A stretch of DNA of 64,000 nucleotides from Octopus vulgaris (Eukaryota): contig OX597817.1 in the NCBI GenBank assembly GCA_951406725.2, forward strand, positions 94,798,001 through 94,862,000, read 5' to 3'. The notes under the pieces are model-generated. The model was given only the letters and a program-made list of their open reading frames with translations. It searched no databases and was not told where the DNA came from. Both the position numbers and the translations under genes were made by a program. Below are positions 44,398 through 64,000 of the stretch, one piece after another (the stretch's first letter is position 1; every line of letters starts with the position of its first letter).

Positions 44398-44448
44398 TTT
44401 GCCAAAATATTTTCGTCGCTTTGAAGCCGCGACCTGATCACTGACAAA
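44398..44448 (-). ncRNA. Variant hammerhead ribozyme (G3-C8 core, GTGATCA)
   Basis: tttgtca-GTGATCA-g-GTCGC-ggcttcaaa-GCGAC-GAA-AATATT-T-tggcaaa; 7-bp stem I (one G-U), palindromic stem III. Confidence 0.65.
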
Positions 44449-45634: not shown

Positions 45635-46043
45635 CACACACACACATACACACACATATATATATAATATACGTAAATATCGAACAATGAGAATGCTTAT
45701 ACTTCTATATTAGCACTTGTGTATATGTGTGTGAGTGGAGGAAACATGTCAGTATTTCTTTATGTATATTAGAATTGTTTAAGCCGGCAGAATGCAGTAT
45801 ATAGTACACAGCGTTTTTAACAACGAACAGGATGATGGCCTCTGAAACGTTTTGATCATGAATCAGTGGATTAGCGGTGGTTTTTATTTAAACAAGAATA
45901 ATTCTATCGTGTTGGATCGGAATTAAACAACTTCATTATGAGCTACCACAGAGTCAATATTACAATTCGAACAGTGAAAATTTCGACCATACATACATGT
46001 ATGTATGTATGTATGTATGTATGTATGTATGTATGTATGTATG

Positions 46044-46074
<31 letters not shown>

Positions 46075-46174
46075 GTATGTATGCATGTGTGTATGTACGT
46101 ATGTATGTATGTGGATCTATGAGCGAGTGTGTATATGTGCGTGTACGATGTACGTCTGTGTGTGTATTTATGTG

Positions 46175-46249
<75 letters not shown>

Positions 46250-47354
46250 CAATGAGTAACGAGTTTGTTTATTCCGATAACATAAAAATCTAGAGATCTG
46301 GAGCTTTTTGAACGCACTTCCAGCATCAGTTGGATTTTTGAACTCCTTCTCTCGCAGGAAACCATCAACGTGCTTGAAAAAGTGGTAGTCGGTAGGAGAA
46401 AGGTCTGGGGAATAATCTGGGTGGGGAAGAACATCATAGCCAAGTTCCCTCAACTTCTGGAACGTCATTAGTGAAACGTGTGGTCGAACATTGTCATGAA
46501 GAATGACTGACCCACTTCTGTTGACCAGTCTGGGACGGAGAAGCAGCAGTTTTTCCTCCATTTTGGCAATTTCATGGCAATATGTTTCTGCAATAATGGT
46601 TTTTCCAGGTTTTAAGAAGTTATAGTGGATGAGTCCAGCAGTACATCACCAAACGGTCACCATAACTTTCTTTTTGAAGAGCTCGGGTTTAGGGAAGATT
46701 TTCGCTACTTTATTTCTGTCCAACCACTGAGAACATTTCTTTTATTATTGTACAGAATCCACTTTTCATCGCAAGTTACAATGTGGTTGAAATATGGATC
46801 GATCTGGTTACAGAGAAGAGCAAATTTCGTATCTGCGCATTTTCTGGTTTTCATTCAAATCGTGATTTGTCGAGCTTCTTTGATTTTCTGATCGCATGTA
46901 AATGGTTGCAGGCAGTTTTCTCACTAACTTGAAGATCTTTTGTAGGTTCTCGAGTGGTTTTATGTGGATCTTTCTCAATGCCAGTTTTAAATTGACCGTC
47001 ATCGATGACAGATGGGCGTCCACTACGCTCACGATCTTCAAGGCTCAGGTCTCCACTGCGAAATCGTTTAAACTATTTTCCAGCTGATTACTCACTGGTC
47101 AGTTCCTCACCAAATGTTTCATTGATATCGCGAACAGTTTCAGCTGATTTACGTCCTTTTTGGAAGTTAAATAGCAAAATTGCTTGAATATTGCACTTTG
47201 ACAGTTCCATTTCAAATTACTGTGACAACGGTGAAAAATATATTGATGCATTTGGGTAAATCTACATCTGTATTATCAGACAATTGCAAACTCTATAAAA
47301 ATCCGGTACAAATTCGTCATAGTTCAAAACATTCCTTACTTTTTATACAACCTG
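46250..47354 (-). mobile_element. mariner (DD34D) transposon, decayed
   Basis: TIR tatcaggttgtataaaaag; MELSK...FRSGDLSLEDRERSGRP; HDNVRPH; PDYSPDLSPTDYHFF. Confidence 0.9.
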
Positions 47355-47634
47355 ATAGTTATTCTACCATCAATAGATCGGTACGTACAACGAATACGAA
47401 ACTTCACTGGTGAAATCATAAGAAATCCGAAACGTTTGGAGTTGTCTCCCCTACTTGCCGTAAAAAAATTAATAATGGTTTCAAATTTTGGCACAAAGCT
47501 AGTTATTTTAAAGGAAAGTAAGTCAATTATATCGAGCCCAGTGTAAAACTGGTACTTATTTTAACCACTCCGAAAGAATGAAAGGCAAAGTAGACCGCGG
47601 CGGAATTTGATCCCAAGGACATAAGTATAGTAAT

Positions 47635-48177
47635 TACACGCCATATCACGGTTCACCTATCGCGCCCTCTGTACATCGCGGGTTTTTCTGGCTAATATAT
47701 GTAAATTTATAACGGGGTCCCCTCAGTATATCACGTGTTTCTACGGCTGATAGGTATTTAAATTCTTTTTAGATTTTAATTATTTCTGTGGTAAAATAAT
47801 CATTTTCACGCCTAAAAATTAATAAATTAATAAATTAATAAATTAAGATACTATACAGTACTGCACTGTACAACACATTAATTAAATCGTAATAAAGAAA
47901 ATACGTAGTATACCGTAGATGTGTAAACAAAGAGTCGCACATACTGTATGAAAAACGAAACTCGGAAGGCAATAAAAGAGAAGACACGGGTACTCCTAAG
48001 AGTGTGGAGAGAGTTTATAAAAGCTGAAATATATAAAAGTAATAAAATAAATATATACAAATTATAAAAGTAATTAAAAAATATACGGTACAGTACTGTT
48101 TCTACTTCGCGGATTTTCACCCAACGTGAGGGTTAGGGTTGGAACGTAACACCTGCGATAATCGAAGGTTTACCGTA
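47635..48177. mobile_element. Tigger/pogo-like MITE nested in a family A SINE (47470-47620 + 48180-48237, minus)
   Basis: gccatatcacggttcacctatcgcg... / ...gcgataatcgaaggtttaccgta ends; SINE halves on both sides. Confidence 0.6.
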
Positions 48178-48906
48178 GTCTGAAAAAGTGCCGCTCAGCA
48201 GTTTGCCCAAGTCGTTAATGATTCTACAAACTCACAAATAGACATTGACTAATTTTATTTTACCTGTACATAATTATTTCTAGTTAGCTTTTTCAATTTT
48301 CCCAGGGTTAAATATATTAACACCGACTTGACTAACAATCTCTCTCTATAGATTCTGAAGTTAAATACCCAATCAACATGACCAGCTGTAATTCCATGAA
48401 GGAAACGAACTAATACTTATCTAAAAATTGACAAGGGAGAAGGAATATTCCTGGAATTTTAATGACACAGTGAGAATGTTTGCCGTTCTCTCTTGACCTT
48501 AAGACATTAGAAGTGCAAGTGAAATAATCTGAATCAATTTAGGTGAGTTCTTGGCTCAAAGAAACTAAGCTGACGTATGTGATGTGTATGAGTGTGTGAG
48601 AGTGTGTCTATGTGCCTCTGTGTATCTGCGTATGGGGGTCACAACATGATCGCAATTCAATGACTAAGACAAATAAAAAGTAAAACAGTAACTAAGTATA
48701 AGGCGTGCTCCAGCATTACCGCAGTCAAATGAATGAAACAAGTAAAAGAATAAAAGAATACACACACACATATAGTAACACAAAGAGAGGAATTTCGATT
48801 ATCTCCTCGTAGTGAGTTGTAATGCAAAAAGTATATATCAAATAAAGAGGGAAATGCGCACACTTTACATAGTTTTAATATATTTTTTAATATATTTTAT
48901 ACTGCT

Positions 48907-48939
48907 TGTCTACCGGTTTCGCTTTCGCTAATCATGACA
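48907..48939 (-). ncRNA. 33-nt variant hammerhead (A3-U8 core, ATGATTA)
   Basis: tgtc-ATGATTA-GC-gaaa-GC-GAAAC-CG-GTA-gaca. Confidence 0.7.
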
Positions 48940-49658
48940 TTGAAATTATTGTAATTTCGTATTCTCTGAAGATTTTAGTCCATGTTGTGAGTAGAGAAGT
49001 TTGTGAATGATTCAAGTAGAAAATCTAAGGGGAAGTAATTGGTGATTGTTATTACTGGGGACAGGGGAGGTAATTGTTCATCTTTCGGGGCCGAGGATAA
49101 ATATTCACAAAAACTCAAAAGCTAAAGTAGTGAGAAGAAATATGTACACTGATGGGAATGAAATCATGAATTAAAATATATACTGAGATTAAAGTTGGTT
49201 ATGCGTTCATATTTAGACTTGTTCTGTATTTTTCGATGACAAATTTTCCAAAATAAAATTTATAGTAAACATTTTTAGACCCAATGGAGAGAAATAAGGA
49301 CACAGGCTGGAACAAAACATACAGGAGAAACCCAACGTATTGAATTTATTAAAGAAACGTCTTTCTGCAACAAAAATCAGTATACTGGCTAAAGGATTGA
49401 AATTTATCCCAACCCCACGAAGATCTAATCAGAATGAAATTAAAGACAATATTTCTGAATTCTGCAGAAAACTACGACGCACAGAAGCACTAACTGACTA
49501 CAACGAGGATGAATCACTGGTTAAGACTTCTGCGATCATATCCAAAATTTCCCAAATACTTTCCATAAGCGAAAAACTAATTTAGAATGGAAAAATCTAA
49601 TTAAACTACAAAACGACAAAGAACTGACAATTAAAGAAGCAGACAAAGGAAATGCTGT

Positions 49659-50189
49659 CTTCTTCTTCTTCTTCTTCTTCTTCTTCTTCTTCTTCTTCTT
49701 CTTCTTCTTCTTCTTTTCTTCTTCTTCTTCTTCTTCTTCTTCTTCTTCTTCTTCTTCTTCTTCTTCTTCTTCTTCTTCTTCTTCTTCTTCTTCTTTTTCT
49801 TCCAATCAGGACTCACGCCATTAGCCACAAAGAATAATCTCTAAATCGAGCCTACTCTAAGCTACTAAGAATACGTGTGACAACTTGAAGATCAACCCAC
49901 CAAACGCGATAGACTGGCGGTTGGACGGGCACGAAAGCTGCGTTTGTTGTCCTCATTTCGTGAGCTAAACCATCCTGAGGTACAAAGGATTCACAATCTA
50001 GGAAGAAAGAGTGAGAGAAAGTTGTGGTGAAAGATTACAGCGGGGCTCACCCCCACCCCCATCCCGCCTGAGCCTCGTGGAGCTTAGGTGTTTTTGCTCA
50101 ATAAACACTCACAATTCCCGGTCTGGGAATCGAAACCGCCTTCTTACGACCGCGAATCCGCTGCCCTAACCACTGGGCCATTGCGCCTT
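49659..50189 (-). mobile_element. tRNA-derived SINE (family C) with (GAA)n tail and 15-bp TSD
   Basis: Head ggcgcaatggcccagtggttagg...ggtttcgattccc; TSD caaaggaaatgctgt (49644-49658) / caaagggagtgctgt (50190-50204). Confidence 0.85.
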
Positions 50190-51854
50190 CAAAGGGAGTG
50201 CTGTAGTATTATCCATGCTCGAAAACGATACCATCTACGAAAAGGTTGTAAACTATAAACAACAAAAAACAATGAAAAATCCTGCATCCCTAATGGAAAA
50301 GGTCTGCATCTACATGGAAATCTTGCATCTAAATGGAGAAGGCCTAACAGAAAAAGAAATAGATTACATCACGAACTTTAAACGTAAACCTAGTCTTTTT
50401 TACGGCCTACCAAAAATACATAAGAGCAAGATAGTTAATGAAGTCTGCAAACAATCACACATAAATACCAAGCGCCAGAAGACTTAAAGTTAAGACCCAT
50501 TATAGCTGGCCCAGCCTGTGAAACCCACCGCCGAAGCAATTTTATAGACATCCTACTGCAACCCTTGCTGAAATACATCAAAAGTTTCACTAGAGATGAT
50601 CTAGACATGTTAGAGCACCTACAAAAACCAACTAATAAAGAGGCATTACTGGCTTCCTTCGATGTTATTAATCTTTACACCAGCATCCCACAAGACTATG
50701 GAATAGAAGCAATAAAATTCGGGTTGGAAAAGTACCCCGAAGTACTTCCGGAACGCAAAATCAGGTCTTTATTGTTCAATCTTTAAAATTTATACTTCAG
50801 ATCAATTATTTCCTATTTGATGACACTTACTATCGCCAAAAATGCGGAATTGCGATGGGAACGACAGCAGCCCCTGTTCTTGCGAACCTAATAATGGATT
50901 ATTTTGAACTCACCATATATGAAGTGTCACTGCAAAAATATGGATATCCATTTCACTATTATTTCATAAGAGAGAACTGGAAAAGATACCTGGATGACTG
51001 CTTTATCATTTGGATGGAGACCATTGATAAACTTTTGAAATTCAAATCAATACTAAATAATATAAACCCTAACATTCAATTCACAATGGAATATAGCAAA
51101 GAACAGCTCCACTTTTTTTTTTAATATTATGATAAAAAAGTCAACAAGTAAATTATAACTGATATCTATCATAAACAAATGGACTCGAAGCAATATCTCC
51201 TGTTTAGCTCATGCCACCCGAAATACATTAAAAGAAATATCCCCTTTAATTTAGCAAAAGGTGTTTGCATAATAGTGTCTGATGCAAATACTGGGAATCT
51301 TCGTCTTCAAGACTTCAGAACAACACTAACTGAAAGGCAATTCCCACCCTCACTTATAGACGATGAAATTAAGCGTGCTAAAAAATTAAACATTAAAACA
51401 ATGAGGGCAACATAACGTAACACCACACCTTATCTCAAAACACTACTGTATATATCAACTCACAACCCTAGAAACAATGCGGCATACAACACTATTGTAC
51501 AAAATCTATCTATGCTCACTAGAGATCCAAAAATTAACAACATTCTGAAAACACATAAATTCATTAAATGCAAAGCAACAAGAACCGCTAAAAAGACTTC
51601 TAACAAATGCGAAGCTTTACACAATAACCACGAAACCAACGGTGAAAAAATGTGGACCTACTGGAAGGCTCGGAATTCCTATTCAAATAAGGAGAGAGGT
51701 TCCAATTAAAACCAGCTTCACTTGTGCTTCCGAGCATCTAATTCATGTTATAACTTGCTCATGTTGTGGACATAACTATATAGGACAGCCATGTGTGAAA
51801 CTTGGGGTCTATTTCTAGCAGACTGGTGTTGTAATCATTCAACATCCTTATTAC

Positions 51855-52245
51855 GACGGGCTACTATCAGTTTCCGTCTACCAAATCTACTCACAAGGCT
51901 TTCGTCAGCCCGTGGCTTCAGTGGAAGACACTTGCCCAAGATATCACGCAGTGACACTGAACCTGGAACTTTGGGTTGAGAAGCAAGCTTTTTCCTACAT
52001 AGCCACGCCTGCGCCTATAGCTGGTAGAACCGTTAGCACGCCGGGCGAAATGTGGAGCCGTATTTCGTCTGCTGTTACGTTCTGAGTTCAAATTCCGTCG
52101 AGGTCGACTTTGCCTTTCATCCTTTCGGGGGTCGACAAATTAAGTACCAGTTATGCACTGGGGTCGATGTAATCGACTTAATTCGTTTGTCTGCCCTTGT
52201 TTGTCCCCCCCCCTATGTTTAGCCCCTTGTGGGTAATAAAGAAAC
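51855..52245. mobile_element. Head-to-head SINEs: family B head (minus, 51855-52018) and family A (plus, 52020-52245)
   Basis: Homology to other copies in the window. Confidence 0.85.
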
Positions 52246-52479
52246 ATATGTGTGTGCGTGCGTGCGTGTGTGTGCGTGCGCATGTGTGTGTGCGTACGTG
52301 CGTGTGTGTGTGTGCGTGCGTGTGTGTGTGTGTGTGTGTCTGCGTGTGGTGATTTAGAGACACTTAATTACCAGCATATTACTCTCTTCAAGCTAATTAA
52401 AAGGTTATCTCTTTCAGATACCCCGAAGAAGATAAAACGTTAACACAAATAATAAAAAGACGCACAGTAATTGTTGTCA

Positions 52480-53260
52480 CATGTGCAGAACACAACGATT
52501 TAAAAATTACCATTTTCAAAGTGCTACAAAGGCGTTCAGATGGAATTGGAAACCTCTGGCAGGAATGTTTCAACTACATCAAACATTCTAAGCACCCAGA
52601 CGCTATAAGTACACAAAATTTCATCCATCGAGTTCTGAACATTATTGTTGATAGTCCCGGAAAAATCAAATAGGGTCATCTCTAAAGAATTTCAGGCGTC
52701 GGGGTGGGCTATCAGAACTGTGGGGCACGAGAACATTTGATAAAAGTCGTGTGTATTGAGGAAAGGCCACCGTTTGATCCGTGCCAAGCGGTTGCTTAAC
52801 AAGGTAAAAAAATTCTCAAAACATGGCATGGTTTGGTGCTCCTGTGATTACAAACACCGCGACAATGACCAAAAGTCTAAAAGAAGAAATGACAAATGGT
52901 TATGTGTAGATCCTTCTGGTGTCCCCAGACGAAGTTTCCAGCAACTGTAATGGTTTTAGGAGCGATGAGTAACGAAGGTCATGTCATACCACCACACATC
53001 TTGATACATTGAGGTACTTGAGACAGTTGTTAAGCCCTGGATGGATGAAGTACGCAGCAGAAGGCTTGTTCAAACAAAACTCAGCATTCTCACAAAACCT
53101 ACGAAATCCAAGAATGGATGTCATGCAATCACCTACGATAATGTAAAATTAATGTTGTGACCTACAAACTCGACAGATATAAATCCCATGTTGAATGGGA
53201 GATCAATCAATATTATCACAATGCCATAGCTTCACCGAAGGCCGTCATTGGAAAAACTGA
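52480..53260 (+). pseudogene. Tc1/mariner (DD37D-like) transposase relic
   Basis: KRLLNKVK..MVW..DQKSKRRNDKWLC, KFPATVMVLGAMSNEGHVIPP, YIEVLETVVKPWM, PTNSTDINPM. Confidence 0.75.
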
Positions 53261-53648
53261 CGGAAAGTAAAGATTTAGGAGGAAGAAATAAAAATTTCAT
53301 GGTGTCATTGAAAAGGAAGACAAGTAAACCAGCAAATGAATATATAAGTACGGTATATAACTATGTAGTTTAATAAGTGAATTACTATTGATAAAGGTAT
53401 ATATGGATTGGTATGAAATTTCTGGGTAAGTTTCAGTTTCTAATAATCTAATAAAGCGTCAGTTATACAAGGTAATATTCGGAGTTAAGCTAGTAGATAG
53501 TAAAGTTAAATCAATTGGTAGTTGGAGCTATACTTTATTCTCCTTCGCTAAAATTTTAATTTTTAATGCTTTACAGTTTAAAAAGTAGGAATATTTAGGA
53601 TGAAATAATGAGAAAGACTAAATAACAGGATACACACACACGCGCATA

Positions 53649-53682
<34 letters not shown>

Positions 53683-53710
53683 CATACATGCATACATACA
53701 TATATACAAG

Positions 53711-53862
<152 letters not shown>

Positions 53863-53869
53863 TAGTAAA

Positions 53870-55720
53870 AAGTGAAAAAACCACAGAAGGATTGTTTTAA
53901 AAGGTTAAAAAATATATTTGAGTCATTATGTCAGAAGAATGTTATAAAAATTTTCATACAGTGACATAGTTTTTGAAGAAATTACCGGTTTCGTGTTAAC
54001 TTTTCAAATTTCTCAAAACATCGTGTTATGACTTCGTTATGAAGTGTAAAGAAGAGTTCCAGGTAAGGGGAGGTAATAAGTGATTTCTTCCGGTGTAAGG
54101 GAGATAATCGCTTTATATTTCATGCCTCTTTTACTTAATGGGGTGAGTTTCTCTATATAAGAATGTTAGAGTGGTTAAGTTTGGGCTTATATTTTTCAAT
54201 GAAGAATGTTTCCTTGTTTAGTCTAATTTGTGTTGGTGTTCCAATAGCACATTGATAAAAAGGAAAGATTAAAAATTGTGGTAGTAGTTGCTTTGCGCAT
54301 TTCTCAATATGCTCACTAAAGGGTATAATTCTGTATTCTGGGAATGCAATCTGTTGTCGATGCAGTGTGCATCTACGTCTGAATGATAGTCCCGTGGACC
54401 CCACGTAGTTTTGGTGGCAGCCCGAGCATCTTATGACATAAATTGTGTTTTCAGAAGCACAAGTAAAATTAGATTTGATATTGAATTTTTGTCCCTCTTT
54501 GAAAAGGAATTCCGATCCTTCTAGAAAGTTTGGGCATGTTTGGTCTACCACATTTTTTTACTTTTGCATCCGCAATTTCAGAAAACAATTTTGCCTTTGT
54601 GAGAATCATTTTTAGTGATTTAGATTGTTTGTAGCTTTTAATGATTTTATGTATGTTTAGAATTTCCTTTAATGTGGGGTCCTTATGAAGTATTGGTAAA
54701 TTCTGGGTGATGATGGTGAAGGCTTCTTTGTTTCTAGGGTTGTATGTGGATATGTAAGGTAGTATTTTCGGGGAACGTGTGTTGTTGTGTTGAACTTTTC
54801 TCAAAGTTTCTATGTCGATTTCTGTTGCACGTCTGATCCCATCCTCTATGAGTTGAGCTGGGTAGTGTCTGTCAATTAGGGTGTTTTTTAGTTCTTGTAG
54901 TCTAAAGTTCCTGGTATTTTGTTCTGACACTATTGTGCATATCCTTCTTGCAAGGTTGAAAGGGATGTTTGTTTTAGTGTGTCTTGGGTGGCATGAATAA
55001 AAAAGTAGGTATTGTTTGGCGTCTGTGGCTTTGTAAAAAATGCCTGTTTCTCTTTTAAGGTTAATTTTTTTAATTAGTATATCTAAGAATGGAAGCTCCT
55101 TTTGGTTGTATTCCATTGTGAACTGTATATTTGGGTTGATGCTGTTCAATAGGTTTTTGAATTTTAGGAGTTTATCTGTGTTTTCATTCCAGAGTATAAA
55201 ACAATCGTCCAGGAATCGTTTCCAATTCACTTTTATGTATTGAGAGAGGGGGTTTCCAAAGGTTGATAAAGATTCCTGGTAAACAATTATTACCAGGTAG
55301 CCCATTGTTAGGTTCGCAATGACTGGTGCTGCCCTTGTACCCATAGCAATTCCGGATTTTTGATGGTAAAATGTATTGTCAAACATGAAGTGGTTATTAT
55401 GTAGGATGAATTCAACCGATTTAGTAATGAATTCTTTACTGATCCTTTTTGGTATTTCTGCTGGAAATTGGTCCAGCCAGAACTGTATTGCCTCTAGTCC
55501 ATAATTATGAGGTATACTGGTATATAAATTAACTGCACCAAATGAAACCATGATTGTTTCTTCCTTGACTTCTTTTGGAAGGTGGTTTAACATATCCAAG
55601 TCATCTCTGATATGGCTATCGATATGTTTAAGGAAGGGTTTCAGGAGGATGTCCCTAAATAGACTTAATCTGTGTGTTTCACAGGTTGGGCCAGCTACAA
55701 TGGGTCGTAGTTTTAGGTCC

Positions 55721-55722
<2 letters not shown>
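53870..55722 (-). mobile_element. PLE, 5'-truncated at (TA)n; RT ORF 54469-55599 and GIY-YIG ORF 54153-54551
   Basis: VNLYTSIP, MGTRAAP, KRFLDDCF, LPFLDI, SCHP; TIYVIRCSGCHQNYVGSTG..RCTLHRQQ; same family as 48760-51790. Confidence 0.93.
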
Positions 55723-55789
<67 letters not shown>

Positions 55790-56038
55790 AGAGTTTGTAT
55801 GTGTATGTAGGTGTGCGCATGTTCCTTATGCATTCCAAAACCGAGTTACCGAATGGGTGTGTTGTCATGTATACGTACAAAAATCAAAACATATGCATAG
55901 ATCTTTTTCGTATGCACATGTGCGTGTGTGAGAGAGAGAGAGAGAATGTGTGCGTTCTCATGTATGTGTAAGTGGCACTCAACCCGAAACATTGCATTAA
56001 AAGACATCCATTGTTCTATATATTATGAGAAAATACGA

Positions 56039-56078
<40 letters not shown>

Positions 56079-56570
56079 ACAAAAAAGACGTATGCATATG
56101 TATTTATGGCCGAATGTAAAGAATACGCACATCCGGTGTTTAGGATTAGGGTCACGCCGAAAACGGGTGGTGCACATATTCTTTACCTCTGCCTATTTAT
56201 GTATGTGTATATGAAAGTTGTGTGTGTGAGAGAGAGGGGGGAATGAATGATGCTTACACATACATGCAAAAAATTCATACATCACCACACCTTCATTCAA
56301 TCTCTCTTTTTTTCTCTGTCTCTCAAACACACGTCCATTTCATATACACGTACATCTTTCACATTCTCCTCTCTTTTACTTTCTCCTTTCACTTCAAAGC
56401 AAATGTCGCCTCTTTTCTTTATTCTCTCTTTCAATTTCTCCTCTCTTCAAAGCATAAATAAATTAAAAGAATTTTACGGAAATTAACGAACAATCATATG
56501 ATCCCATATATGTCGAGTTTAGGACTTTGTTTCTTCAAACAAAAGAATGCCATAAAATAACTTCCTTTGG

Positions 56571-56599
<29 letters not shown>

Positions 56600-56610
<11 letters not shown>

Positions 56611-57667
56611 AGGTAAAACTTCTGTGCGAATTATGTTTTCTTGCAGTGTGCACGCGCAAATTTAAAGCTCAAATCTAATTGAAATTATCTTTTGCTATTG
56701 TGTAATTTGTGTTTGTGATGAACATCTTTAAAAACCTGATCTCCAATGTAAACTTAAAAGAAAGTTTTCCCAGAAATCCTGTCCTTTACTTCTTCTTTCT
56801 AGCATGTCCAAGGTGATATTTTCGCTCCCCGCCTTATCTTTTTCTTAAATTTTTTCCGATTCCTATGTCTGCGATACTGAAGATTAGGATTTCACCCACA
56901 AAACACGTTCTCAATATTTTAATTTTCTCCCTTTCCACACCAAATTCATTTTTTACATTTTTCAAATATTTTTTCTTGGTAATCCATGGAGAAAAAACAG
57001 AGAGTACGAATCTTTAACAATTTTACCCATCACCTCACTACTTTCAAAAAGCTACAGACTCCCAATGTTCACTTTTAGCTTTATGGAAAGCGGGGAATTT
57101 TCTTCAGAAATAAAGTCGTTTACTTGTTGTTTCTAGCAAGTTGGGTTTTCAGGCGGTGGTCTGGTATTTTTAAGTTTGCTATTTCAGTAGAATTCTACGC
57201 ATGCGGGAAACATCAGGCAAAAGTGAAAGCTAGCACGTGATGGGTGAGCGAGGTGGGGAAGGGGCATTGAGTGTTTCTTTAAGAAAAATTAAACTATGTA
57301 AAATATATGTATTTTCCAGATTAGTAATCTCTATATATTTCTACGTATATAACAAAAACAAAAAAAAATTCGAAAAAGTTACAAATTAAGAAATTGCAGT
57401 GAGGATGGGAGAAAATTAAAATTTTGAAAACGTGATTTCTATATAAAATCTTATTAACGCCCTTTTATGATCCTTCTTAAGAACATAAAGCACTTTCATG
57501 CAAACCCATGCAAATTATACTCTCCCCTTCCCTTTTAAATAAACGATAACTTCCATTATGCCATCAATTAGATATCAGCTGTGCCGATTCTGCTCATAAG
57601 AAAGGAGCAAATAGTATAATGTGCCTGTAGGTCATAACACCCGGGCAACGCCGAGCTGCATTGCTAG
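56600..57667 (+). mobile_element. Non-autonomous Helitron-type element (3' end clear, 5' end uncertain)
   Basis: GC hairpin cccgggcaacgccgag (57640-57655), 8 nt, CTAG|T at 57664-57668. Confidence 0.55.
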
Positions 57668-61180: not shown

Positions 61181-61390
61181 TTTCATTATCAATGATTCAT
61201 TTCAATGATTCTTTCTAGCGATGAGTATGTATGGGTGAGTGAACAAACGGAAGAAAAAGGCACCCAACACATTTAGTAGTAGTTATATGTATTATTATTT
61301 TAAAAGTTTGATTTATCGCCATGCGTGTTTAACTGATCCTCCTGGATTTTCTTTTACCCAAAACCAGGAACTTATCGGCACCGCCTCGTG

Positions 61391-61460
<70 letters not shown>

Positions 61461-61466
<6 letters not shown>

Positions 61467-62428
61467 CGTCTGGGGAGAGTCATTCTCTTTTAGTGCCTTA
61501 TTACTTAACACACACACACACCGGTAAAGTATCCACTCATTTACTTATTTATTTTCCCCAAAATTTTCGTTGCGTCTTGCAACCTTTACAATAGTCGTTG
61601 ACCCTACCCGTTATCCGAGCTGCTTCTTTTTGTTTGTTTGTGCGCATGTGTATGGGTCACTGTATGTTTTTATGTGTGTTTGCATGTGTGTGTGTGTGTA
61701 TACCTCTATCTCCTTTTGTGTGCTTGTCTGAGTGTGTCTGTGCGTGTGTACGGGTTTTTGTGACTAAGTACTGTGTCTGTATATATGGATGTGTATCTCC
61801 ATATGAGTGGATGTGTGTCTCCATATGTGTCCTTTTGTGAAGTGAAGTGTGTGTGTATATGGTCATGTGTTTCAGTCTTTATTTGCGTATGTGTGTGTAT
61901 GTGTACTTGTCTGTTCATTTTACCTATATACCTATCCGTCTATATGTCTATATATTTACATTCATCTCTATTTGCCTACATACATGTGCATATATGTATA
62001 CATACACACAAACACATACACACCCACCTACACACAACAGCCCACTAACTATTCTACCTGTATATAAATATAAACTGTGGGTATGGGGGTATAATTACCT
62101 ACTACGTATATTATCTATTTAGTACATGGGAATGTTCCATTTATGAAGACTTACTCCTGTATTTGTCTGGGGTTGGGTCCACACATTTGGAAATACACAT
62201 CCATACATACAGACACTGTACACAGTCACAGAAATCTATATACACACAGACACACTCAGACATGCACACACAAGGAGACAGATGTACACACACACATAAA
62301 AACACACAAACACAAACAAACAAACAAAAATACTTGAATATGCAGAATACGTACATACAAACGTACACACGTACATATATGCATACGCAAACACACACAC
62401 ATACATACATGCATACACACATGCATAC

Positions 62429-62459
<31 letters not shown>

Positions 62460-62758
62460 CATACATACATACATACATACATACATACATACATACATAC
62501 ATACATACATACATTTATACATACATATATGCATACATACAAACATACATAAATACATGTGTATGTGTATACGCACACACAGTGACCCCCACACATGCAC
62601 ACAAACAAATAAAAAGGTTGCAAGACGCAACGAAAATTTTAGGAAAAATAAATAAGTAAATGAATGGAAACTTTACGGATGAGTGTGTTAAATAATAAGG
62701 CACGAAAAGAGAATAACTCTCCCCAGACGCAACAAAATATGCTTCAACACACGATACT

Positions 62759-62828
<70 letters not shown>

Positions 62829-63781
62829 CGTCTGGGGAGAGTCATTCTCTTTTAGTGCCTTATTACTTAACACACACACACACCGGTAAAAATCCACTCA
62901 TTTACTTATTTATTTTCCCCAAAATTTTCGTTGCGTCTTAACCTTTACAATAGTCGTTGACCCTACCCGTTATCCGAGCTGCTTCTTTTTGTTTGTTTGT
63001 GCGCATGTGTATGGGTCACTGTATGTTTTTATGTGTGTTTGCATGTGTGTGTGTGTGTATACCTCTATCTCCTTTTGTGTGCTTGTCTGAGTGTGTCTGT
63101 GCGTGTGTACGGGTTTTTGTGACTAAGTATGTGTCTATATATATGGATGTGTATCTCCATATGAGTGGATGTGTGTCTCCATATTGTGTCCTTTTGTGAA
63201 GTGAAGTGTGTGTGTATATGGTCATGTGTTTCAGTCTTTATTTGCGTATGTGTGTGTATGTGTACTTGTCTGTTCATTTTACCTATATACATATCCGTCT
63301 ATATGTCTATATATTTACATTCATCTCTATTTGCCTACATACATGTGCATATATGTATACATACACACAAACACATACACACCCACCTACACACAACAGC
63401 CCACTAACTATTCTACCTGTATATAAATATAAACTGTGGGTATGGGGGTATAATTACCTACTACGTATATTATCTATTTAGTACATGGGAATGTTCCATT
63501 TATGAAGACTTACTCCTGTATTTGTCTGGGGTTGGGTCCACACATTTGGAAATACACATCCATACATACAGACACTGTACACAGTCACAGAAATCTATAT
63601 ACACACAGACACACTCAGACATGCACACACAAGGAGACAGATGTACACACACACATAAAAACACACAAACAAACAAACAAAAATACTTGAATATGCAGAA
63701 TACGTACATACAAACGTACACACGTACATATATGCATACGCAAACACACACACATACATACATGCATACACACATGCATAC

Positions 63782-63812
<31 letters not shown>

Positions 63813-64000
63813 CATACATACATACATACATTTATACATACATATATGCATACATACAAACATACATAAATACATGTGTATGTGTATACGCACACACAGT
63901 GACCCCCACACATGCACACAAACAAATAAAAAGGTTGCAAGACGCAACGAAAATTTTAGGAAAAATAAATAAGTAAATGAATGGAAACTTTACGGATGAG
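61461..64000. repeat. Tandem duplication (period 1362 bp) of a foldback unit of the CA-rich HHR-variant repeat
   Basis: ttgttgcgtctggggagagtc at 61461 and 62823; each unit has diverged inverted arms (61461-~61830 vs ~62170-62735). Confidence 0.92.

What the first reader, a model, noticed from the sequence alone, without database searches (positions are those of the whole stretch)
48907..48939. 33-nt A3-U8 hammerhead in the inverted pLTR of a PLE
tgtc-AUGAUUA-GC(GAAA)GC-GAAAC-CG-GUA-gaca is about as small as a hammerhead can be: a 2-bp stem II with a GAAA tetraloop and an ACCGGU palindrome. It sits where PLE 3' UTR ribozymes are expected, downstream of the antisense ORF end KFVIEKYRTSLN*. The related PLE at 53870-55722 retains GAAACCGGTA at ~53982-53991 (minus) without a recognisable 5' core.
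Basis: partly seen in the sequence, partly recalled or inferred. Interest (0 to 1): 0.75.

Follow-up and report, generated by a model that had tools for sequence, protein, structure and literature searches.

The report
Tiny hammerhead with flipped core pair
A 33-letter motif shaped like a self-cutting hammerhead RNA sits in the tail of a Penelope-type jumping gene with over a thousand copies in this animal genome; its usual C-G core pair is replaced by an A-U pair that I found in no paper searched, and it likely cuts only weakly and only when two copies pair, which has not been tested.

Summary
The motif is real (minus strand, 48907-48939): a minimal type I hammerhead 260 nt behind the stop codon of a Neptune-like Penelope element. 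A3-U8 is the lineage state, not decay: 28 of 29 copies picked by DNA similarity have A3 and 29 have U8; the genome holds 1015 exact A3-U8 matches against 0 in the control. The double hammerhead is the predicted dimer fold. Against strong activity: a published double-mutant scan rescued this pair only with G3-C8; published PLE mini-hammerheads cut poorly; no copy ends mark the cut site. This copy is a broken relic with a private GUA triplet (family GUC). Verdict: new core variant of a known kind; cleavage untested. This scan noted an A3-U8 Penelope hammerhead before in another genome and many U3-A8 ones in this genome.

The parts
48907..48939 (-). Minimal type I hammerhead motif, 33 nt: stem I 48936-48939 / 48907-48910; core A3(48935)-U4-G5-A6-U7-U8(48930)-A9; stem II 48921-48928; G12-A13-A14 48918-48920; palindrome ACCGGU 48912-48917; N17 at 48911; predicted cut between 48911 and 48910
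48773..49243 (-). 3' piece of the Penelope-like element (lineage A): last codons of the GIY-YIG domain, stop codon 49199-49201, 3' UTR with the hammerhead, about 55-nt tail (about 48773-48830), ending at a TA/TG microsatellite
   Evidence: the tail matches the stretch that runs into ORF1 in L220 and L224
49257..51802 (+). Broken RT-endonuclease piece of the same lineage, opposite orientation, starting near the ORF1/ORF2 overlap, interrupted at about 49659-50203 and cut off inside GIY-YIG
   Evidence: 77-88% identity to ORF DNA upstream of family hammerheads in L002-L030
53978..54012 (-). Sister hammerhead with U3-A8 core, stem I GAAAU/AUUUC (extendable), stem II GU/AC, same ACCGGU palindrome
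53870..55722 (-). 5'-truncated copy of the young sister PLE lineage B (copies 95-98% alike), 65% DNA identity to lineage A over the ORF and no blastn match over the 3' UTR

Best explanation
The 33 bases are the minimal hammerhead motif in the 3' UTR of a Neptune-like Penelope retrotransposon lineage whose core pair is fixed as A3-U8; in active parent elements it likely cut weakly, predicted to do so only as a dimer joined through the ACCGGU palindrome, and likely served to trim the transcript to a unit that was probably closed into a circular template. Shown: the motif, its place, its copy number, the covariation across lineages, head-to-tail permuted full-length copies in the sister lineage. 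Inferred: dimer folding, cleavage, ligation, circular template. The copy in the window is a decayed, rearranged relic with no sign of a role of its own.
For: A3 in 28 and U8 in 29 of 29 similarity-picked copies. Genome counts for the same frame: A3-U8 1015, U3-A8 516, C3-G8 0, A3 with non-U8 48 (15 of them A-A, counted by eye), non-A3 with U8 40 (9 U-U), controls 0-1. Subfamily majorities keep U4, G5, A6, A9, G10.1-C11.1 (A-U in one 2-copy group), GAAA, ACCGGU and vary at N7 (A/U/C), N17 (C/A/U; G in 0 of 214 contexts, some of them picked with a pattern that excluded G) and in stem I by paired changes UGUC/GACA, AUAUC/GAUAU, GAAAU/AUUUC, CAG/CUG, while the 3' UTRs of lineages A and B no longer align. 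Non-CpG mismatch to the family majority 34 of 719 in the motif, 670 of 8546 in flanks. The double hammerhead is the minimum-energy dimer fold, -15.5 kcal/mol against -3.4 per monomer, and stays so with 30 nt flanks; a monomer with stem III costs +2.4. In 30 full-length 5' ends of sister lineage B, 28 have an upstream sense pLTR and 22 of these reach past the hammerhead, so one transcript carries two; pLTR lengths vary from about 80 to over 1400 nt and the 3' tail is the 5' UTR of ORF1, as a circular or multimeric template would give. Cervera and De la Pena 2014 (PMC4209133) saw low cleavage of PLE min-HHR dimers and none of monomers.
Against: Roberts et al. 2023 (PMC9901934, passages): in a full double-mutant scan of a type III hammerhead only the G3-C8 swap rescued this pair; all other mutants there had low activity. 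The change between A3-U8 and U3-A8 is a single event on the tree, so the large counts are not independent evidence. Dimerisation gain is no better than shuffles (52 of 200 as good) and the fold is lost with 60-nt flanks. None of 28 upstream pLTRs starts within 10 nt of the cut site; six start 38-67 nt behind it. Sister subfamilies tolerate flaws: one-pair stem II (GAAAAUAC), U3-G8, an extra U or U-U at the base of stem I. Two same-strand hammerheads in one insertion were not seen for lineage A in 14 long loci, and the 7 close pairs among the first 100 listed A3-U8 matches are all inverted. Only 5 of 29 family copies keep core and stems intact.
Confidence: 0.55

Rival explanations
1. The motif keeps the hammerhead fold but hardly cuts; it is kept as an RNA pairing or protein-binding element (the palindrome joins two RNAs, or two ends of one), which could also help explain the frequent tails-out insertions.
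For: Low activity expected of A3-U8 (PMC9901934 passages); shrunken stem II; strict conservation of ACCGGU across lineages; tails-out pairs; arms of L173 differ in subfamily markers, as two templates would give; intact motifs with about 150 nt behind them in all copies.
Against: Pairing alone does not need G5, A6, G12, A13, A14, a Watson-Crick 3-8 pair or the avoidance of G17; most inverted pairs share subfamily markers; Naiads make inverted insertions without a canonical hammerhead (PMC8557442 passages).
Confidence: 0.27
2. A3-U8 is a dead core that hitchhiked: two mutations in one master copy, by luck complementary, spread with an element that does not need a ribozyme.
For: One change on the tree; given a change at both positions, complementarity by luck is about one in three; lineage A has no intact RT frame among the matches seen (longest 486 aa); Naiads thrive without canonical hammerheads (PMC8557442).
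Against: After the change the core stayed fixed through subfamilies A1 and A2, whose proteins are 61-65% alike in decayed copies and whose 3' UTRs are 65-70% alike, while N7, loop 2 and stem I changed, stem I by paired changes.
Confidence: 0.13
3. This particular copy has been taken over by the host as a cutting signal in a transcript.
For: It is one of the copies with core and stems intact.
Against: It has no partner hammerhead of its kind nearby on the same strand; the element is broken; other runs show the family, not this copy.
Confidence: 0.03

Closest known systems
Minimal type I hammerheads (min-HHR) of metazoan Penelope-like elements, incl. the U3-A8 variant of Schistosoma mansoni Cercyon (Cervera and De la Pena 2014, PMC4209133; read: main text parts 1-2 of 4, supplement file 2 parts 1-2 of 3; file 1 not searchable)
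   Same: Place in the pLTR/3' UTR, type I order, short stem I, G10.1-C11.1, palindromic helix III needing a dimer, thousands of dispersed truncated copies, a covarying 3-8 pair.
   Different: Core pair A3-U8 (none of the 56 listed representatives has it); helix II of 2 bp (shortest listed 3 bp, typical 4-8); no extra base between positions 9 and 10.1; no cephalopod listed.
Natural hammerhead core variants (Perreault et al. 2011, PMC3088659; passages)
   Same: Reports natural U3-A8 covariation and stem II of only two pairs, so small stem II as such is known.
   Different: A3-U8 is not named in the passages seen; those ribozymes mostly have a full stem III and tertiary contacts.
Small PLE-associated hammerhead variants that cleave as dimers (Lunse, Weinberg, Breaker 2016, RNA Biol 14:1499; not held, seen only as a citation in PMC6765202)
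   Same: Diminished stem III, PLE association, dimer cleavage, as the review states.
   Different: Could not be read; its large collection may already hold A3-U8 examples, which would lower the novelty.
Neptune-clade EN+ Penelope-like elements (Craig et al. 2021, PMC8557442; introduction, passages, supplement search)
   Same: RT followed by Cys linker and GIY-YIG, (TA)n targets, partial tandems, inverted truncated partners, optional 30-40 bp tail.
   Different: These lineages have an upstream ORF1 overlapping the RT frame at a conserved U UUU UUA heptamer, whereas the paper describes canonical EN+ PLEs as single-ORF.

Membership tests
Hammerhead ribozyme, minimal type I of PLEs | Core U4 G5 A6 N7 A9, G12 A13 A14, A15.1-U16.1, H17 | tested here: met
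Hammerhead ribozyme, minimal type I of PLEs | Consensus C3 and G8 | tested here: not met
   A3 and U8 instead
Hammerhead ribozyme, minimal type I of PLEs | Watson-Crick pair between positions 3 and 8 | tested here: met
   A-U 1015, U-A 516, mismatched 48 and 40; one change on the tree
Hammerhead ribozyme, minimal type I of PLEs | Stem I and stem II with G10.1-C11.1, supported by paired changes | tested here: met
   stem II only 2 bp, second pair broken in one sister subfamily
Hammerhead ribozyme, minimal type I of PLEs | Palindromic helix III that allows a dimer | tested here: met
   ACCGGU; double hammerhead is the dimer minimum-energy fold, gain not above shuffles
Hammerhead ribozyme, minimal type I of PLEs | Long helix II and an extra base between 9 and 10.1, as in most metazoan PLE motifs | tested here: not met
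Hammerhead ribozyme, minimal type I of PLEs | Position in the pLTR / 3' UTR of a PLE | tested here: met
   260 nt behind the stop; ORF upstream on the same strand in relatives
Hammerhead ribozyme, minimal type I of PLEs | Match to an Rfam hammerhead model | tested here: not met
   no hammerhead family among 50 matches up to E 10 in 47500-57000
Hammerhead ribozyme, minimal type I of PLEs | Site-specific self-cleavage | not testable with these tools
   only contigs available; no footprint in copy ends
Neptune-clade Penelope-like element | RT followed by C-terminal GIY-YIG endonuclease | tested here: met
   RVT_1 E 2.8e-07 in L183; GIY-YIG E 0.0017, below Pfam's cut-off, in window 54153-54557; lineage A 50-60% identical to L183
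Neptune-clade Penelope-like element | CX2-5CxxC linker between RT and EN; (TA)n targets; pLTR and tail | tested here: met
   linker C-x4-C-x2-C in L183 (read in the sister lineage, frame broken in the window copy)
Neptune-clade Penelope-like element | Single ORF | tested here: not met
   ORF1 of about 450-495 aa overlaps the RT frame
Neptune-clade Penelope-like element | Placement among reference Neptune RTs in a tree | not tested
   no reference sequences were fetched

The most novel reading that the evidence does not exclude
A 33-nt RNA with the least expected core pair (A3-U8) and a two-pair stem II is a working natural ribozyme as a palindrome-linked dimer, close to the smallest natural hammerhead, and its cleavage makes the circular template of a two-ORF Penelope lineage; together with the U3-A8, G3-C8 and C3-G8 motifs in the same genome it would be a natural test series of the 3-8 pair.
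Probability: 0.35. Interest if true: 0.62.

Novelty: new variant of a known kind. Interest (0 to 1): 0.4.

Why it matters
What PLE hammerheads do is still open (PMC8557442 calls their function unclear). A lineage that fixed a core pair expected to cut poorly, kept it through two waves of copying and over a thousand insertions, and has sister lineages with U3-A8 in the same scaffold, gives a clean comparison: if A3-U8 dimers cut, the rules drawn from laboratory hammerheads are context-bound and search descriptors built on CUGANGA miss whole families; if they do not, the motif is kept for something other than cutting.

Tried and rejected
Rfam scan: no hammerhead hit. Monomer folding z-score: not above shuffles. 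Idea that no cis dimer is possible because close pairs are all inverted: rejected for full-length sister copies, 22 of 28 of which carry two same-strand motifs; not settled for lineage A. Idea that copies begin at the cut site: not seen, 0 of 28 within 10 nt; three deletions with an end at the cut site (L030, L085/L162, L171), two explained by short microhomology, were not taken as evidence. Idea that inverted arms come from different templates: most arms share subfamily markers, L173 and L178 do not; inconclusive. Sequencing runs: no RNA holder listed on record, contigs only; laying them shows the family in runs labelled organisms A-D, with C17 as the main letter, but nothing on ends or expression. 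One search was swamped by TA repeats and redone. Literature: searches for A3-U8 wording and for hammerhead with octopus and Penelope found no report of natural A3-U8; Lunse 2016, Przybilski and Hammann 2007 and Nelson and Uhlenbeck 2008 are not held. The tree has no outgroup; direction U3-A8 to A3-U8 rests on midpoint rooting and one copy of lineage D.

Full report
Observation. The reverse complement of window 48907-48939 is UGUC AUGAUUA GC GAAA GC GAAA CCGG UA GACA. In hammerhead numbering (recalled convention, as drawn in PMC4209133) this is stem I (4 bp), A3 U4 G5 A6 U7 U8 A9, stem II of two pairs closed by a GAAA loop, G12 A13 A14, the palindrome A15.1-CCGG-U16.1 and A17, with the predicted cut between 48911 and 48910. 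The monomer folds no better than shuffles and Rfam lists no hammerhead among 50 matches up to E 10, so the case rests on comparison.

Family. The window is G000:C4:94798001-94862000 of a 2.8-Gb animal genome, which earlier notes of this scan call octopus-like (not checked here). A search with the 501 bases around the motif gave 2053 candidates, 40 scored, 41 matches at 80-86% identity. In the 29 other copies fetched, picked by overall similarity and not by the motif, A3 stands in 28 and U8 in 29; position 17 is C in 25, A in 2, U in 1, deleted in 1, so the window's GUA is a private change; 15 of 29 keep the whole core and 5 of 29 core and stems, with most losses at CpG sites. Non-CpG mismatch to the majority is 34 of 719 in the motif and 670 of 8546 in the flanks, a modest difference that alignment noise in AT-rich flanks may inflate.

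Covariation. Exact genome counts for one frame (N3 UGA N N8 AG N6 C GAAACCGGU): A3-U8 1015, U3-A8 516, C3-G8 0, A3 with another base at 8 48, U8 with another base at 3 40; backwards controls 0, 0, 0, 0 and 1. G3-C8 in this frame was not searched. A looser pattern with longer stem II gave 3512 matches against 2. Among 214 distinct contexts in the loci held, subfamily majorities keep the catalytic positions and the palindrome and vary at N7, N17, loop 2 and in stem I by paired changes; G17 occurs in none, though about 18 loci were picked with a pattern that excluded it. Protein trees (45 of 72 rows; 19 chosen rows) give four lineages: A (A3-U8; older A1 with GAAA loop, to which the window copy belongs, and younger A2 with GAUA/GAUU loops) and B, C, D (U3-A8). 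One change separates the states; midpoint rooting groups A with D and so favours U3-A8 as the older state, but there is no outgroup and D is one copy. Sister subfamilies also show slack: a one-pair stem II, U3-G8, an extra U at the base of stem I.

Element. The motif lies 260 nt behind the stop codon (49199-49201; the frame ends SLNMNA*). The 3' piece (about 48773-49243, minus) abuts a broken RT-EN piece of the same lineage on the plus strand (49257-51802). The two do not overlap and no second 3' end is present, so the arrangement fits either an inverted truncated partner whose mate lost its end, or a 5' inversion of one insertion. Intact relatives have RT (Pfam RVT_1, E 2.8e-07), a Cys linker and GIY-YIG (E 0.0017, under the cut-off) and insert in TA repeats with an optional tail, as PMC8557442 describes for Neptune-type elements; no reference tree was made.

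Mechanism. A monomer cannot form a stable stem III (+2.4 kcal/mol); two copies fold with the double hammerhead as the minimum-energy structure (-15.5 kcal/mol; pair probabilities mostly about 0.9), also with 30-nt flanks but not with 60-nt flanks; the gain on pairing is matched by 52 of 200 shuffles. For A2 GAUU and the U3-A8 motifs the double hammerhead is not the minimum. In the young lineage B, 28 of 30 full-length 5' ends carry an upstream sense pLTR; starts range from 1346 nt before to 67 nt behind the cut, 22 include the hammerhead, none lies within 10 nt of the cut; the 3' tail is the 5' UTR of ORF1. Lineage A shows the same head-to-tail join in L220 and L224. This fits the published proposal (PMC4209133) that two motifs in a partial tandem cut out a unit that is closed and copied for more than one turn, but a long multimeric transcript would leave the same pattern, and nothing here shows a cut. 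Sequencing runs offered only contigs.

Against activity. PMC4209133 reports no monomer cleavage and low dimer cleavage for a C3-G8 min-HHR. PMC9901934 (passages) found that only the G-C swap rescued this pair in a double-mutant scan. PMC3088659 (passages) states that covarying bases at 3 and 8 had been shown active in vitro and names U3-A8 as the natural case. The papers that measured A3-U8 directly are not held; my recollection that it is the slowest Watson-Crick swap comes from no call.

Novelty. Mini-hammerheads in PLE ends, dimer dependence, U3-A8 and two-pair stem II are published. A3-U8 is absent from the 56 representatives of PMC4209133 Fig. S3 and from full-text searches, but Lunse 2016 and its supplements, and supplement file 1 of PMC4209133, could not be seen and may hold it. 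This scan noted an A3-U8 Penelope hammerhead in another genome and many U3-A8 cases here; I did not test those notes. Verdict: a real, family-wide new core variant of a known kind of element, in a decayed copy; interest 0.4.

Noticed in passing
window 44398-44448 (minus); L004 about 1065-1115: Hammerhead-like motif with a G3-C8 core, 7-bp stem I, 5-bp stem II and an AAUAUU palindrome. With C3-G8 motifs in L102, L147 and L166, all four Watson-Crick pairs at 3-8 occur in repeats of this genome.
   Followed up: no
L185 2125-3612 and 3438-5873; L223 3400, L225 3432, L221 3399, L224, L226, L200 1185; decayed at window about 49270: These endonuclease-bearing PLEs have an upstream ORF1 (about 450-495 aa, no Pfam hit) overlapping the RT frame in -1, with a U UUU UUA heptamer conserved in lineages A, B and C and a predicted stem behind it: likely programmed -1 frameshifting. 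PMC8557442 calls canonical EN+ PLEs single-ORF and shows an ORF1 frameshift in a figure whose clade I could not see.
   Followed up: partly
L179-L197, L229-L258: Lineage B is very young (copies up to 99% alike) with several open 807-859-aa RT-EN frames and long inverted arms 98-99.9% alike; the best candidate for RNA tests.
   Followed up: partly
L177 (G000:C1:7828097 and 7828216): An inverted pair of lineage B ends, one U3-A8 and one A3-U8 in the same scaffold; may be double decay in one copy or a second origin.
   Followed up: no
L207, L216, L215: Tandem units of about 358-363 nt with U3-A8 hammerheads and no RT similarity, retrozyme-like.
   Followed up: no
L173, L178: Inverted pairs whose arms carry markers of different subfamilies or lineages: two templates in one event, or insertion next to an older copy.
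   Followed up: no
window 45923-46891 (minus): Fragment of a mariner-like transposase frame (label recalled from the motifs, not tested).
   Followed up: no
window 61389-63999: Near-identical duplication with a period of about 1360 nt; may be a recent tandem copy or an assembly artefact.
   Followed up: no
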